A stretch of DNA of 64,000 nucleotides from an uncultured Pseudomonadales bacterium (lineage in GTDB: Bacteria; Pseudomonadota; Gammaproteobacteria; Pseudomonadales; JBECKS01): positions 38,111-102,110 of the forward strand of contig CAZKYI010000004.1 of the NCBI GenBank assembly GCA_964557005.1, in the 5' to 3' direction. Of this stretch, positions 32,448 through 36,556 are shown piece after piece. The position numbers and the translations under genes are program-made. The notes beneath the pieces were generated by a model. It saw nothing but the letters and a program-made list of their open reading frames with translations. It had not been told where the DNA came from and did no database searches. The stretch's first letter is position 1. The number at the start of each line of letters is the position of its first letter.

Positions 32448-33368
32448 ATGTTATTAAAAGGAAAAACGATTGCTGTAACAGGTGCCAGTGGCATGATTGG
32501 CGTTTACCTGTGCCGCAGCTTGTTACGAGAAGGCGCGAAGGTTATTGGCGTAGTGCGTAATCCCGAAAAGGCCGCGTTTTTGGCAGCAGAAGGGGTTGAA
32601 TTTCGCAAGGCCGATTTAATGGATAGAGCTGCTTTGGAAAAAGCTTTTTCAGGGTGCGATGCAGTGATTTCCAATGCCGCTATGTATGTCGCAATAAAGG
32701 CCATGAGTTCTTTAAAAGCGCATCAACAGGCCAACATTGAAGGTACGCGCAATGTGCTGGAAGCAGCGCACAGCGCAGGTGTAAAACGTATAGCACAAAT
32801 CAGCACCTTTGGTATTTATCGTTGGTCTTTGTTTAGAACCATTACTGAAGAGTCTCCACAGCTTAATGGCGCAAAAGGAAGAGGCGGCCCTTACCGTGCC
32901 ACCAAGCAAGCCAGTGAAGCATTAGCCTGGGAACTTGCGAAAAAATATGAACTGCAATTAACTACTTTCCGCCCAGCCGGTGTGTTTGGTGCGCGTGATT
33001 CCAATACCTTGCAATTAGTGTATAACTTATTGCGCATACGCTTTTTGATTATTCCGAGTATTTCATTTCCATTGATTTATGCAGGTGATCTGGCCAATAC
33101 CGTTGCGAAAGCTTTAGGCACAGATGTAAGCATTAACCAGGCCTATAACGTGACTGGCGCATCGATACAGATTTCAGAATTTTTTAAAGCGATTGTGGGT
33201 GCGGTGAGTAGAAAACCAAAATTACTGTATCTTCCGTTTCCTGTTGTTACGAAAGTGGATAACAGTAAAGCTGAAAGGGACTTGGGTTTTACAACTCGAC
33301 CCTATTTGGAATCCATGAAGGAAATTGTTGCGGAAGAAATGCCACCAAAGCATTTGGGTAGCAAATGA
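32448..33368 (+). CDS. NAD(P)-dependent epimerase/dehydratase-family (extended SDR) oxidoreductase
   Basis: 306 aa. TGASGMIG Rossmann motif, catalytic YRATK (YxxxK), and an AGGAG Shine-Dalgarno. Confidence 0.88.
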   Translation: MLLKGKTIAVTGASGMIGVYLCRSLLREGAKVIGVVRNPEKAAFLAAEGVEFRKADLMDRAALEKAFSGCDAVISNAAMYVAIKAMSSLKAHQQANIEGTRNVLEAAHSAGVKRIAQISTFGIYRWSLFRTITEESPQLNGAKGRGGPYRATKQASEALAWELAKKYELQLTTFRPAGVFGARDSNTLQLVYNLLRIRFLIIPSISFPLIYAGDLANTVAKALGTDVSINQAYNVTGASIQISEFFKAIVGAVSRKPKLLYLPFPVVTKVDNSKAERDLGFTTRPYLESMKEIVAEEMPPKHLGSK

Positions 33369-33530
33369 CTCGTCAAATTCCTCTGAGCAAAAGTGCATGG
33401 GTAAGGAATTAACCATTGAATTACAGTGACTCGGTGTGGAAGTGATTGGCTAATGCGCCTGCCATGCAAGTGCCGCATCGCAGCGATATACTTCAGCAAC
33501 TGGAAGATGAAGGTTTCACTGTGATTCCTA
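33365..33530 (+). pseudogene. purT: 5' remnant of a second purT copy (internal deletions, in-frame stop)
   Basis: Hand alignment to the intact purT gives three blocks. 33398-33449 matches 29561-29612 at 49/52. 33452-33484 matches 29629-29661 at 29/33. 33484-33528 matches 29757-29801 at about 35/45. About 15 nt and about 95 nt are missing between the blocks. CGA has become TGA at 33427-33429. The remnant ATG (33365-33367) overlaps the SDR stop (ATGA). Confidence 0.85.
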
Positions 33531-33550
33531 ATCTATCTAAAAAATTTACT

Positions 33551-36355
33551 CTAAATACAGTAAGGCTTGAAATGGTAATATGAAAATCTTCGAACAAATG
33601 TAACAACAAAGAGTAAAAAAAGTATAGGGAAATTGATTATTCCACCAGAGGAACCGCTTGTGCTAGATGAGTTGCTTGTGTCTGCTGTGGGAGAAGGTGT
33701 TGATTTAGATTTATCTTCATTTTCATCATGTGGTAGGGCTGCGGGAGCGGTTTTTGATGTAACAACAAAGGTTTGAAACACCTCGCCGAGAGATACCTCG
33801 TATTCAATACTGCTACTATGTGTGTTAGGAGTGTTAACATTAAACACGACCTCATCTCCATTTTCTACGAGTCCGACAGAAGTATCAAAGTTAGAGCCAT
33901 TAATACTAAGAGTTCCATTCTTGATAGAAATTGGTGTGATGTCTGTTAAATTAGATATTTCCAAAACTTTAGTTGTTACTGTGGTGGCAGTATCGACATC
34001 GGAAATATTATCAATAGAGTAATTGGCTGTTTGTGTTGAAATATTTTTAAGGAATGTTGGTGTTAAACTTGATTTAACAGTCATTGCTATATCAATACCA
34101 TTTGATTCGAATAAATCAGCCATAGCGAAATCGTGGCCTGTAGTACTTACAAGGAATGACTTACTTTGTTTGAAATTTGCGTGGCCATCATTAATATATA
34201 CGTTGATACCGTTAGAAAATCCAGAGGTTGTAATTATTTCCGGCCCATTGATTCCATCCAAGTCATGTATAAATATTTTTGGTATAGGATATCTTGCCCA
34301 ACTTTCAGGTTGCTGAATTCTTGTAAAGTTAAATCCATTTCCCTGGTTAAGAAAAATATAAAAGCGGTTGGAATAACTAACAACAAAGTCTAGACCATTA
34401 ACTCCATCAAGATCACCAACAGCTAAAGATCGTATCGAAGTCATTGATGTAGTTGAAAATTCAGCAACATACGAATCAAAAGAAAGTTCCCCGTTATGAT
34501 TTTTCATCACTCCAATTGATCCTTTTTTTTCAAGATAAAGCACATCAATATCGCCATCGTTATCAAAATCGCCTGCAATAAAATCATATGGAGAATCGTT
34601 GTTTGGTATTTCTGCTATTTTCTTTGATAAAAATCCGCCAGATCCATCATTAAATCTTGTTACAACAACATATTTTCCACTTTGATAATCGTGTCCAACA
34701 AAATCATCTCCATTCTTGCCATCAATATCTACCAGTATCCATCTGTCAATATCACTACTACTTGTTGCTAGTGTCCCAGAGTTTTCGGTGAAAGTTCCAT
34801 CTCCTTTAACAAAGTATTTGAGCGGAGAATTACCGTTTGCTTCGACAGCTAGATCCAAAGCGCCTGTATTGTCCATATTTCCAACTTGCATTCTGTTTGT
34901 ACCGAAAGATGTTGGGTAATTTTGAGGTGGTTCAAAAGAATCCAGTCCATCGCTAAGTAAGATTGAAAATTTGTTTTCGGTATTGTAGTAGGAGATGGCT
35001 ATATCCATATGATGCTCGCCATCCATATCTAAAGATACAATTTTTCTAGTATTCTCATTAAGCTCATAATCTACTGATGGGAAAATACCATTGTCACCAC
35101 TGATAATCGGGTAGAAATAGTTAAAGCCCACGACCAGAAGGTCGTTAATTCCATTACTATTTAAATCACCAAATAGAAAATTCCCATAGTATGGTAGAGT
35201 TTGTCGCGAGTTAAATACACCATTACCTGAATTGAGGTAAATACTTTTACTGCTTGAATAATTATCATAAGAGTATCTGTTTGAAACTATAATATCTAAA
35301 CCATTTTGGCCATCAATGTCGAAAAATTCAAAACTGGAAATACCACTTATAACAGTATTGAGAATTTCTGCTGAACCGAAACCATTACCATTCCCTAGGT
35401 TTTTATAAAAAATCAGCTCTTTCTCTTGATTATACCCTACGATATCTTCTCCATTTTCTCCATTGATATCGGCTAAACCGTAGATAGGCATAGGCATATG
35501 TTTTATATCACTTATTGATGTAAAGCTGCCATCAGCATTGTTAGAAAGAACTCGTAGCATTTGAGTTGATGTATTTCTTGTTAAGATGTCCAATCCATCT
35601 CTTCCGTCGAAATCAAACAGGTAAGCTTTATCTTCGGCTGTCTCAAAATCATATGTATTTTCGAGATTGAAGCCCCCTGAATCATTGTTTAGCCACACTT
35701 CGACCTTTTTATTAGAGTTGCTGAATAAGATAATATCTTTTCCATAAGCTAAATCGGTATCAAACAAGCCAAGAATAATTGGTTGTTTGATTGTATCTAG
35801 TGTAATCGGTGAAAATGAATTATCCCCATTATTAAAAAACACAGAGACATTGTTTAGAGAGTGGGATACAACGAAGTCTAGTCCGTTAATATTATCTAAA
35901 TCGGTAAATTTAATACTCCCTGCATTAATCCTATCTGCCAAAATATATTCGTAAGTTAATGTATATTTTCCGAAGCCATTGTTAATAAAAACCGAAACAG
36001 AAGAATGGTTTAGATCATTAGAATAATTCCGAGTAACAATGTCATCTCCATTCTTTCCATCTACATCAAGCACATAAAAATCTAAAATTTTTGATTCGGT
36101 ATAATAGCGTTCTCCTGAATCTGAAAAGTACGCGTTGCCATGATTAAGCATTATTTTAATAATGTTATCTTCGGCAACAACTACATCCATTCCATTTTTT
36201 TGGTCAACATCAGCTAGCTTTGCTAAGTGTGAAGTGTTGTCTCCCATATAAAAGCCAGTTGGAGCATTAAACAATATCATTCCCGTACTATTAACTGTCA
36301 TTGTTAAAGCTAGCAAACAGGCAACAATTTTTATTGTTAGATTTGGGTTATGCAT
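33551..36355 (-). CDS. secreted FG-GAP/VCBS-repeat (integrin-alpha-like beta-propeller) protein with a GlyGly-CTERM-like C-terminal anchor
   Basis: 934 aa. It has an N-terminal signal-like segment IKIVACLLALTMTV. I count about 15 repeats by hand of the D-x-D/N-G-x-N-G-x-D-[IFV]-[IV] type, for example VLDVDGKNGDDIV and AGDFDNDGDIDVL. The C-terminus has an S/T-rich linker followed by SSGGIINFPILFLLFVVTFVRR. The gene is visibly more AT-rich than its flanks. Confidence 0.82.
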   Translation of the reverse strand: MHNPNLTIKIVACLLALTMTVNSTGMILFNAPTGFYMGDNTSHLAKLADVDQKNGMDVVVAEDNIIKIMLNHGNAYFSDSGERYYTESKILDFYVLDVDGKNGDDIVTRNYSNDLNHSSVSVFINNGFGKYTLTYEYILADRINAGSIKFTDLDNINGLDFVVSHSLNNVSVFFNNGDNSFSPITLDTIKQPIILGLFDTDLAYGKDIILFSNSNKKVEVWLNNDSGGFNLENTYDFETAEDKAYLFDFDGRDGLDILTRNTSTQMLRVLSNNADGSFTSISDIKHMPMPIYGLADINGENGEDIVGYNQEKELIFYKNLGNGNGFGSAEILNTVISGISSFEFFDIDGQNGLDIIVSNRYSYDNYSSSKSIYLNSGNGVFNSRQTLPYYGNFLFGDLNSNGINDLLVVGFNYFYPIISGDNGIFPSVDYELNENTRKIVSLDMDGEHHMDIAISYYNTENKFSILLSDGLDSFEPPQNYPTSFGTNRMQVGNMDNTGALDLAVEANGNSPLKYFVKGDGTFTENSGTLATSSSDIDRWILVDIDGKNGDDFVGHDYQSGKYVVVTRFNDGSGGFLSKKIAEIPNNDSPYDFIAGDFDNDGDIDVLYLEKKGSIGVMKNHNGELSFDSYVAEFSTTSMTSIRSLAVGDLDGVNGLDFVVSYSNRFYIFLNQGNGFNFTRIQQPESWARYPIPKIFIHDLDGINGPEIITTSGFSNGINVYINDGHANFKQSKSFLVSTTGHDFAMADLFESNGIDIAMTVKSSLTPTFLKNISTQTANYSIDNISDVDTATTVTTKVLEISNLTDITPISIKNGTLSINGSNFDTSVGLVENGDEVVFNVNTPNTHSSSIEYEVSLGEVFQTFVVTSKTAPAALPHDENEDKSKSTPSPTADTSNSSSTSGSSGGIINFPILFLLFVVTFVRRFSYYHFKPYCI

Positions 36356-36469
36356 AGTAAAAAGTCCATAATACTTATATCTAGCAATATCTAGACTTGA
36401 TAGCGTACTAGTAAGAAGTGATTTCTATATTTTGTTGAATATTGATTAAGCTACTTGGTTTCGTTTATA

Positions 36470-36556
36470 CCTACAGTTTTGTCATCTGTAAATGACATAT
36501 GTGCCGCTATCGCCAAAGCTAAGGCAGCACTAGATGATTTTAAATTGACAAGCTGA
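36470..36556 (+). pseudogene. purT: 3' remnant of the second purT copy
   Basis: 36503-36529 matches intact purT 30622-30648 at 24/27. All 3 differences are at codon third positions, and both encode AAIAKAKAA. The frame runs to TGA at 36554-36556, 21 nt before the crotonase ATG. The left boundary is uncertain. Confidence 0.7.

What the first reader, a model, noticed from the sequence alone, without database searches (positions are those of the whole stretch)
33365..36556. A second purT copy has been gutted: its 5' and 3' remnants flank the AT-rich FG-GAP gene
An intact purT lies at 29479-30672. A 5' purT remnant begins 2.7 kb downstream, right at the SDR stop codon. Its ATG (33365-33367) overlaps the SDR TGA, so the two genes were once translationally coupled. 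Three blocks align to intact purT by hand at 49/52, 29/33 and about 35/45 identities, separated by deletions, and CGA has become TGA at 33427. On the far side of the FG-GAP gene, 36503-36529 matches the purT 3' end (30622-30648) at 24/27, with all three differences at third codon positions (AAIAKAKAA is conserved). That frame ends at TGA 36554-36556, 21 nt before the crotonase ATG. The former layout was therefore SDR-purT'-crotonase on the + strand. About 1 kb of purT' has been replaced by a block of about 2.9 kb that carries one reverse-oriented AT-rich gene and no visible mobility gene. Most differences between the remnants and the intact copy are synonymous or conservative ([13 protein letters not shown] versus LQQLEDEGFTVIP). 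This means the two copies diverged while both were under selection, so one is probably a xenolog or an old paralog rather than a recent duplicate. It is a rare, readable case of functional displacement followed by in-situ gene destruction.
Basis: seen in the sequence. Interest (0 to 1): 0.7.

Follow-up and report, generated by a model that had tools for sequence, protein, structure and literature searches.

The report
Dead purT copy split by foreign gene
A second, dead copy of the purine-synthesis gene purT lies 2.7 kb downstream of the working copy, with its middle replaced by a foreign AT-rich gene; this is a real and tidy but ordinary case of a redundant bacterial gene decaying.

Summary
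Across the whole 64-kb window, only three DNA stretches outside the intact purT (29479-30672) resemble it. They are 33398-33487 (E=5e-22), 33481-33528 and 36502-36529 (each E=4e-4).

The 5' remnant (33365-33528) has lost 31, 14 and 96 nt and carries CGA>TGA at 33427. A 2,973-bp block (33529-36501, GC 0.34) replaces purT' nt 324-1142. It holds one reverse-oriented FG-GAP-repeat gene and no mobility gene, terminal repeats or target-site duplication. The 3' remnant (36502-36556) ends in TGA 21 nt before the crotonase ATG.

Nineteen of the 25 differences from the intact copy fall at third codon positions (p=1.6e-5; dS~0.9, dN/dS~0.04). The remnant is still closer to the intact copy (51/55 residues) than to any of 119 other PurT proteins (45/55 or fewer). 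The two genes are therefore long-diverged sisters that were both under selection until recently. That fits a xenolog or an old paralog, not a fresh duplicate.

The four nearest purT lineages keep purT in a different, conserved locus beside ffh-rpsP, so neither position in the window is ancestral. Which copy came first, and how, cannot be resolved. This is an ordinary pseudogene at a synteny break. Interest is low to moderate.

The parts
29479..30672 (+). Intact purT (formate-dependent GAR transformylase), 397 aa, the working copy
   Evidence: Pfam gives ATP-grasp at 4.6e-58, PurT_C at 1.9e-28 and the preATP-grasp domain. It matches E. coli PurT structures 1EYZ/1KJ8 over its full length at E=4e-162. 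The nearest homologs are 84% identical.
33365..33528 (+). 5' remnant of a dead purT copy, corresponding to purT nt 1-323 minus deletions of 31, 14 and 96 nt (possibly also 6 nt in the IGTPLS motif)
   Evidence: blastn E=3e-24 and 2e-6. Block map. Peptide fragments are [32 protein letters not shown] and DILQQLEDEGFTVI.
33427..33429 (+). Nonsense codon TGA where the intact copy has CGA (Arg)
   Evidence: Read directly from the sequence and from the codon alignment.
33529..36501 (.). Foreign AT-rich block of 2,973 bp that replaces purT' nt 324-1142 (819 nt)
   Evidence: GC is 0.344 against a window mean of 0.452. purT homology is at chance level just inside both borders. No terminal inverted repeats or flanking direct repeats were found.
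33551..36355 (-). FG-GAP/VCBS-repeat gene, 934 aa, uninterrupted ORF, with hydrophobic N-terminal and C-terminal segments
   Evidence: Pfam FG-GAP_3 at 2.1e-34. GC3 is 0.267, the lowest of 50 window genes. The best match among 1.84 billion representative proteins is only 26-35% identical and covers repeats only. No relative was found in the metagenome scan.
36502..36556 (+). 3' remnant of the dead purT copy (purT nt 1143 to stop), reading [17 protein letters not shown]
   Evidence: 25/28 identities with all 3 differences at third positions. The stop lies one codon from the position of the intact gene's stop.
32448..33368 (+). SDR/epimerase-family gene whose TGA overlaps the remnant's ATG
   Evidence: Pfam Epimerase at 6.3e-35. 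The C-terminus has the same length as homologs (306 aa). DNA homology to the SDR of L001 runs to about 33362, one or two codons before the stop.
30930..32309 (-). Cytochrome P450 gene. Together with the SDR gene and a small ORF it makes up the 2.7 kb between the two purT copies
   Evidence: Pfam p450 at 3.7e-89.
36578..37345 (+). Crotonase/enoyl-CoA hydratase gene, immediately downstream of the 3' remnant
   Evidence: NCBIfam PRK08259 at 7.9e-124. Pfam ECH_1.
29040..29447 (+). rnk (GreA/GreB-like regulator gene), immediately upstream of the intact purT
   Evidence: Pfam Rnk_N and GreA_GreB.

Best explanation
What it is (shown). 33365-33528 and 36502-36556 are the two ends of one dead purT gene. 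Its central 819 nt were replaced by a 2,973-bp foreign AT-rich block carrying a reverse-oriented FG-GAP-repeat gene. Its 5' part then lost three more pieces to small deletions and gained a nonsense codon. The intact purT 2.7 kb upstream is the only complete copy in the window and presumably supplies the function.

How the redundancy arose (inferred). The two copies are each other's closest known relatives. They nevertheless differ at about half of their synonymous sites while their protein sequences were conserved. They must therefore have evolved as working genes for a long time, most likely in two related but separate lineages. Gene transfer or recombination then probably brought them together in this variable region, perhaps along with the P450-SDR segment that lies between them. 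Once two copies sat side by side, one was dispensable and decayed through the usual bacterial bias towards deletion. The foreign block may have been the inactivating hit or may have landed in a gene that was already dead.

What cannot be told. The data do not show which copy arrived second, or the exact recombination route (integration of a circular piece by one crossover in purT, or one homologous end plus one illegitimate end).
For: - purT ancestry and collinearity of the remnants.
- Disabling lesions and sharp insert borders.
- Foreign composition of the insert: GC 0.344 and GC3 0.267, against 0.33-0.57 for the other 49 window genes.
- Selection signature: 25 differences in 168 aligned nt, 19 of them at third positions (p=1.6e-5). 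pS=0.52, dS=0.88, dN=0.032, dN/dS=0.04.
- Sister relationship: the remnant matches the intact copy at 51/55 residues and 119 other PurT proteins at 45/55 or fewer. It shares the lineage-specific residues KELT and AAIAKAKAA. At DNA level it differs from the intact copy at 25 sites and from the nearest outside genes at 39 and 55 sites.
- Recent death: only 1 second-position difference in 56 codons.
- Rearranged region: conserved synteny (leuCDB-asd-fimV-truA-trpFBA-folC-dedD-cvpA-purF-metZ) ends at metZ. The nearest relatives of purT, SDR and crotonase all sit in other, mutually unlinked contexts.
Against: - No close relative of this genome is available. Every window protein tested is a singleton at 90% identity, so no phylogeny or synteny comparison can show that either copy is foreign.
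- Composition does not separate the copies convincingly. Over the 56 comparable codons GC3 is 0.55 for the intact copy and 0.39 for the remnant, and both lie inside the window's range.
- The sister relationship and same-strand proximity also fit an old duplication within this genome.
- One block (33400-33447) is unusually similar: 2/48 differences against 23/120 elsewhere (Fisher p=0.015). This could reflect gene conversion between long-resident paralogs.
- Only 168 nt can be compared, so dS has a wide error.
Confidence: 0.7

Rival explanations
1. Old paralogs within this genome. purT was duplicated long ago in this lineage, both copies were kept under selection (for example under different regulation), and one was lost only recently.
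For: The two copies are each other's closest relatives among 120 PurT sequences. They lie 2.7 kb apart on the same strand. A near-identical 46-49-nt tract (33400-33448) could be a gene-conversion patch between resident paralogs.
Against: Keeping two redundant purT genes under strong purifying selection to dS~0.9 would be unusual. The four nearest purT lineages show one purT in a different conserved locus, with no second copy within the 6-10 kb retrieved on each side. The DNA between the copies (P450, SDR) has relatives in unrelated contexts, which suggests acquisition.
Confidence: 0.22
2. A recent tandem duplication of purT, followed by neutral decay of one copy.
For: The two copies have the same orientation and lie close together.
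Against: Neutral decay would spread substitutions evenly over codon positions. The observed counts are 5, 1 and 19 for positions 1, 2 and 3 (p=1.6e-5), with pS=0.52 and dN/dS=0.04. No homology extends outside the coding sequence on either side.
Confidence: 0.02
3. An assembly artefact. Sequence from two related strains or species was joined into one contig, creating a false second copy.
For: The genome is known from a single 220,733-bp contig with no close relatives, and it may come from a metagenome.
Against: Strain-collapse artefacts do not produce a nonsense codon, three internal deletions, a 2,973-bp AT-rich gene in mid-gene, and 2.7 kb of unique genes between the copies. The same protein sequences are recorded from both NCBI and Logan sources.
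Confidence: 0.03
4. Chance similarity. The flanks are not derived from purT.
For: None beyond the short length of the 3' match (28 nt).
Against: E=5e-22 for the main block against the whole window. All three matches are collinear, on the same strand and in a consistent frame. The 3' frame stops one codon from the intact gene's stop. These are the only purT-like stretches in 64 kb.
Confidence: 0.01

Closest known systems
Bacterial pseudogenes formed by insertion and deletional decay of redundant genes (deletional bias; Mira, Ochman and Moran 2001, cited from my own knowledge)
   Same: There is significant homology to a working gene in the same genome. The remnant carries a nonsense codon, a frameshifting deletion, several further small deletions, and a large replacement of the gene's centre.
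   Different: Nothing essential. The only unusual point is that the remnant's substitutions still record a long history under selection.
Xenologous gene displacement in situ (Omelchenko et al., Genome Biol 2003;4:R55, cited from my own knowledge; the concept is used in PMC9425974 and PMC1274311, found)
   Same: Two diverged homologs of one housekeeping gene lie side by side in one locus. One is intact and one is decaying, which is the expected intermediate stage.
   Different: Foreign origin of either copy is not shown. In the nearest relatives purT is in another locus, so neither copy is demonstrably the resident one.
Homology-facilitated illegitimate recombination, or Campbell-type integration anchored in a shared gene (HFIR is defined in PMC3240628; a natural displacement example is PMC5361080; both found)
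   Same: Direct repeats of a shared gene bracket acquired DNA (small ORF, P450, SDR). There are no mobility genes. The SDR stop abuts the purT' start with no spacer, and the small ORF and P450 converge with only 7 nt between them. Both look like recombination joints.
   Different: This is purely inferential. No donor or recipient sequence is available, no crossover point can be shown, and the GC3 bias does not switch direction across the candidate crossover block.
E. coli PurT (PDB 1EYZ, 1KJ8)
   Same: The intact copy aligns over residues 9-392 at E=4e-162. The remnant's fragments align to the N-terminal domain and the C-terminal tail.
   Different: The remnant lacks the whole ATP-grasp core (purT nt 324-1142) and cannot encode an enzyme.

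Membership tests
PurT (formate-dependent GAR transformylase) | Uninterrupted ORF of about 390-410 aa with preATP-grasp, ATP-grasp and PurT_C domains (intact copy, 29479-30672) | tested here: met
   Pfam scores for all three domains are above their cut-offs. Full-length match to 1EYZ/1KJ8.
PurT (formate-dependent GAR transformylase) | The same domain architecture and an open frame in the second copy (33365-33528 plus 36502-36556) | tested here: not met
   The ATP-grasp core (nt 324-1142) is absent. There is a frameshift after 33397, TGA at 33427, and 141 nt of internal deletions. It is purT-derived but is not a purT gene.
Pseudogene / gene remnant | Statistically significant homology to a functional gene, plus disabling lesions | tested here: met
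   E=5e-22 against the whole window. Lesions are listed.
Xenologous gene displacement in situ | Two homologs adjacent in one locus, one intact and one decaying | tested here: met
Xenologous gene displacement in situ | Phylogenetic or compositional evidence that one copy is foreign | tested here: inconclusive
   The copies are sisters relative to all 119 other PurT sequences. GC3 is 0.55 against 0.39, both within the window's range. No close relatives exist in any collection searched.
Mobile element (IS, transposon, integron cassette or tRNA-linked island) for the block 33529-36501 | A transposase, integrase or recombinase gene | tested here: not met
   The FG-GAP gene fills 2,805 of the 2,973 bp, leaving spacers of only 22 and 146 nt. 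Its only Pfam hit is FG-GAP_3.
Mobile element (IS, transposon, integron cassette or tRNA-linked island) for the block 33529-36501 | Terminal inverted repeats, a target-site duplication, or an adjacent tRNA gene | tested here: not met
   No repeat pair lies at the two ends. The event is a replacement, not a simple insertion. There is no tRNA gene in the 64 kb.
FG-GAP/VCBS-repeat surface or secreted proteins | Multiple FG-GAP_3 repeats above the Pfam cut-off | tested here: met
   FG-GAP_3 at 2.1e-34, 118 bits against a cut-off of 26.9. Seven DNA-level repeat copies.
GlyGly-CTERM (rhombosortase) sorting signal | A C-terminal Gly-Gly, hydrophobic helix and basic cluster recognised by a curated model | tested here: inconclusive
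   The tail ...SGSSGGIINFPILFLLFVVTFVRRF... looks right by eye. The only hit is to the tail of the SVAGG family at E=0.13, and 10 extra residues follow the basic cluster.

The most novel reading that the evidence does not exclude
The locus may be a frozen intermediate of a housekeeping gene acting as a landing pad for accessory genes. On this reading, a fragment from a related species carrying purT plus P450-SDR integrated through homology in purT. That produced two diverged purT copies bracketing the cargo. The 46-nt identity tract (33403-33448, ignoring the later TGA) would mark the crossover or a later conversion. One purT copy then became free to absorb a further foreign gene. This would be a natural, sequence-readable example of homology-anchored gene gain without any mobile-element machinery.
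Probability: 0.2. Interest if true: 0.45.

Novelty: new member of a known kind. Interest (0 to 1): 0.27.

Why it matters
This is a clean teaching example of how bacterial genomes dispose of a redundant gene. Two long-diverged copies of a housekeeping gene end up side by side. One is erased by small deletions, a stop codon and replacement of its core by foreign DNA, yet its remaining substitutions still show that it was once functional.

In practice, annotation should mark 33365-33528 and 36502-36556 as one purT pseudogene rather than as intergenic DNA or short ORFs. The crotonase gene has also lost whatever upstream transcription it once had.

The finding does not change what is known about purine synthesis, gene transfer or FG-GAP proteins.

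Tried and rejected
Searches for a relative with an uninterrupted locus all came up empty:
- Exact-protein look-ups for the window's SDR and crotonase found nothing.
- A genome-contig scan with purT returned 80 loci at 72-77% identity with no shared neighbours.
- Contigs carrying the nearest SDR (83% and 77%), purT (84%, 84%, 80%, 79%) and crotonase (80%, 79%, 78%) proteins all show different contexts.
- A metagenome scan with metZ found only 61-66% relatives. They share purF-metZ and nothing beyond it.
- A metagenome scan with the FG-GAP protein found no relative.

Other lines that led nowhere or were rejected:
- Extending the remnants. A weak tblastn hit suggested homology up to 33556, but at DNA level only 7/60 positions match in register, so I rejected it.
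- Telling native from foreign by GC3. This was uninformative.
- Testing a crossover at block 33400-33447 by looking for a reversal of the GC3 bias across it. There is none, but the upstream block has only 6 codons.
- Looking for a mobile-element signature, promoters or terminators. No terminal repeats were found. Promoter-like and terminator-like sites are no more frequent than in shuffled sequence.
- Looking for RNA genes. No Rfam family or tRNA gene was found.

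
Full report

Yes. The window has an intact purT at 29479-30672. It is 397 aa, with ATP-grasp, PurT_C and preATP-grasp domains above the Pfam cut-offs. It matches E. coli PurT structures 1EYZ/1KJ8 over its full length at E=4e-162.

blastn of the left flank of the FG-GAP gene against this purT gave 82/104 identities with one 14-nt gap (E=3e-24) and 37/48 (E=2e-6). The right flank gave 25/28 (E=2e-6). When purT is searched against the entire 64-kb window, these are the only hits besides the gene itself (E=5e-22, 4e-4, 4e-4). All three are on the + strand and collinear.

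A gap-tolerant alignment gives this block map:

| purT nt | Window position | Identities |
|---|---|---|
| 34-51 | 33380-33397 | 13/18 |
| 52-81 | deleted (31 nt) | |
| 82-133 | 33397-33448 | 49/52 |
| 134-147 | deleted (14 nt) | |
| 148-182 | 33449-33483 | 30/35 |
| 183-278 | deleted (96 nt) | |
| 279-323 | 33484-33528 | 35/45 |
| 324-1142 | replaced by 33529-36501 | |
| 1143-1170 | 36502-36529 | 25/28 |

ATG 33365-33367 overlaps the SDR stop at 33366-33368. TGA 33427-33429 stands for CGA. The 3' frame ends at TGA 36554-36556, 21 nt before the crotonase ATG.

Three small corrections apply. The replaced segment is 819 nt, not about 1 kb. There is an extra short block at 33380-33397. The frame opened by ATG 33365 already closes at TAA 33410, because the 31-nt deletion shifts it.

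**2. Borders and nature of the insert**

Continuing the purT alignment in register gives 7/60 identities to the right of 33528 and 13/60 to the left of 36502. That is chance level. The insert is therefore 33529-36501, 2,973 bp.

Its GC is 0.344 against 0.452 for the window. The sliding profile drops and recovers at these borders.

The insert consists almost entirely of one minus-strand ORF (33551-36355, 934 aa), leaving spacers of 22 and 146 nt. The ORF carries FG-GAP_3 repeats (2.1e-34). Its GC3 of 0.267 is the lowest of 50 window genes.

Among 1.84 billion representative proteins, its best matches are only 26-35% identical and are repeat-only alignments to giant 2,000-7,000-aa proteins. A metagenome scan found no relative. 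Its C-terminal tail looks like a GlyGly-CTERM sorting signal, but the only model hit has E=0.13.

There are no terminal inverted repeats, no flanking direct repeats, no mobility gene, and no tRNA gene anywhere in the window. Because 819 nt of purT' are missing, the event was a replacement. That points to illegitimate recombination rather than transposition.

**3. History recorded in the remnant**

Over the 168 nt (56 codons) that can be aligned codon by codon, there are 25 differences from the intact copy: 5 at first, 1 at second and 19 at third positions. The binomial p for that many at third positions is 1.6e-5.

A Nei-Gojobori count on 55 codons gives pS=0.52, dS=0.88, dN=0.032 and dN/dS=0.04. 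This is the signature of two working genes diverging under purifying selection. It is not the signature of a fresh duplicate rotting neutrally. The single second-position change suggests that little neutral time has passed since inactivation.

The remnant's peptide fragments nevertheless match the intact copy at 51/55 positions. They match each of 119 other PurT proteins at 45/55 or fewer. They also share residues found in none of the listed homologs ([13 protein letters not shown]). At DNA level the remnant differs from the intact copy at 25 sites, and from the two nearest outside genes at 39 and 55 sites.

The two copies are therefore sister sequences with a deep synonymous split.

One block (33400-33447) is much more similar than the rest: 2/48 differences against 23/120 (Fisher p=0.015). 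Site patterns there strongly group remnant with intact copy. This could be a gene-conversion patch or a recombination crossover site. I could not decide between them.

**4. Context**

To the left of the locus lies a long, widely conserved gene block: leuC-leuD-leuB-asd-fimV-truA-trpF-trpB-trpA-folC-dedD-cvpA-purF-metZ. The purF-metZ pair is conserved in distant metagenomic relatives, and nothing after metZ is.

To the right lie LPS core genes: a heptosyltransferase, hldE-like and hldD-like genes, and a family-2 glycosyltransferase.

Between these blocks is a roughly 10-kb lineage-specific stretch. In order, it holds rnk, purT, a 79-aa ORF, P450 (-), SDR, the dead purT with its FG-GAP insert, crotonase and a carboxylesterase (-).

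The genome is an orphan. Every protein tested is a singleton at 90% identity, all from one 220,733-bp contig. The nearest homologs are 83% identical for SDR, 84% for purT and 80% for crotonase.

Those nearest homologs sit in unrelated contexts:
- SDR follows a START-domain gene or lies beside a peptidase gene.
- Crotonase follows a fatty-acid desaturase gene.
- purT, in all four nearest lineages (79-84%), lies in one conserved core locus: NUDIX-NUDIX-hexapeptide-K+ channel(-) | purT | corC(-)-ccsA-like(-)-ffh-rpsP-rimM-trmD-rplS.

Neither the rnk-purT position nor the SDR-purT'-crotonase position is ancestral for this clade. No relative with an uninterrupted SDR-purT-crotonase could be found.

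**5. Most likely explanation**

The following is shown. A second purT existed between SDR and crotonase. It is dead, its core has been replaced by foreign DNA, and it diverged from the intact copy under selection.

The rest is inferred. Two redundant purT genes are unlikely to be held under strong selection within one genome up to dS~0.9. The copies therefore most probably diverged in separate, related lineages and were brought together by gene transfer into this recombination-prone interval. One then decayed.

Two features fit integration anchored by purT homology. The copies are direct repeats bracketing 2.7 kb of accessory genes with no mobility genes. There are also two very tight joints: the SDR stop overlaps the purT' start, and the small ORF and the P450 gene converge with only 7 nt between them. 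The route could be a Campbell-type single crossover of a circular fragment, or one homologous plus one illegitimate end (as defined in PMC3240628). This route is speculative.

The SDR C-terminus has its normal length, and its DNA homology to the SDR of L001 runs to within one or two codons of the stop. The ATGA overlap could therefore be an evolved operon junction or a recombination joint. I cannot tell which.

**6. Rivals**

- Old in-genome paralogy remains possible (about 0.2). It would also explain the sister relationship and the conversion-like tract.
- Recent duplication is contradicted by the codon-position bias.
- Chance similarity is contradicted by the E-values and the collinearity.
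- An assembly chimera would not produce this pattern of lesions, though it should be excluded by read mapping.

**7. Comparison with known things, and novelty**

This is a bacterial pseudogene produced by insertion or replacement plus deletional decay. It probably represents the intermediate stage of what has been called xenologous gene displacement in situ (Omelchenko et al. 2003, cited from my own knowledge; the concept appears in PMC9425974 and PMC1274311).

It is a new instance of a known kind. It is well preserved and readable but not surprising to a specialist, and it opens no long-standing question. Interest is about 0.27.

The most novel reading not excluded is a housekeeping gene used as a homology landing pad for accessory genes. 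I give that about 0.2 probability and moderate interest if true.

Noticed in passing
L084:8692-9921, L086:2540-3760, L101:6001-7203, L102:6001-7221: The four nearest purT lineages (79-84% aa identity) all keep purT in one conserved core locus: NUDIX-NUDIX-hexapeptide-K+ channel(-) | purT | corC(-)-ccsA-like(-)-ffh-rpsP-rimM-trmD-rplS. Both purT positions in the window are therefore derived. Whether this genome still has a copy at its ffh locus is unknown.
   Followed up: partly
window 33400-33448: This tract is almost identical between the dead and intact purT copies: 2/48 differences against 23/120 in the other blocks, and a 46-nt perfect run if the TGA is ignored. It may be a gene-conversion patch or the site of a recombination crossover.
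   Followed up: partly
window 30683-30922 (+): A small AT-rich ORF of 79 aa with two hydrophobic stretches and only a weak DUF2633 hit (E=1.5e-3). It starts 10 nt after the purT stop and ends 7 nt from the stop of the convergent P450 gene, with no terminator-like site between them. It may be a real small membrane protein gene, and the tight end may be a recombination joint.
   Followed up: partly
window 33551-36355 (-): The FG-GAP-repeat protein has no relative above about 35% identity among 1.84 billion representative proteins. Its tail (SGSSGGIINFPILFLLFVVTFVRRF plus 10 more residues) resembles a GlyGly-CTERM sorting signal but scores only E=0.13.
   Followed up: partly
window 12989-28916: A long conserved core block, leuC-leuD-leuB-asd-fimV-truA-trpF-trpB-trpA-folC-dedD-cvpA-purF-metZ, ends at metZ. 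The 10 kb from rnk to the carboxylesterase gene sits at a synteny break, before LPS core genes (heptosyltransferase 38973-40004, hldE-like 40073-41524, hldD-like 41521-42468).
   Followed up: partly
window 30930-33368 and 36578-38863: P450, SDR, crotonase and a family-B carboxylesterase (all lipid or xenobiotic-type enzymes) surround the dead purT. More distant SDR relatives (61-64% identical) are annotated in hydrocarbon-degrading groups (HdN1, Marinobacter, Alcanivoracaceae). These genes may be pieces of an accessory catabolic cluster.
   Followed up: no
L001/L002 (SRR18593711/12), L090 (SRR18593714); L088 and L102 (JGI 3300038695): The nearest SDR (83%) and crotonase (80%) relatives come from one SRA study. 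A crotonase relative (78%) and a purT relative (79%) come from one JGI sample. These samples probably hold the closest available relatives of this otherwise orphan genome.
   Followed up: no
window 36451-36873 (-): A 140-aa ORF lies antisense to the start of the crotonase gene and runs across the 3' purT remnant. It is most likely a spurious ORF and should not be annotated.
   Followed up: no
window 1-64000: No tRNA gene and no Rfam family at gathering threshold were found anywhere in the 64 kb.
   Followed up: yes
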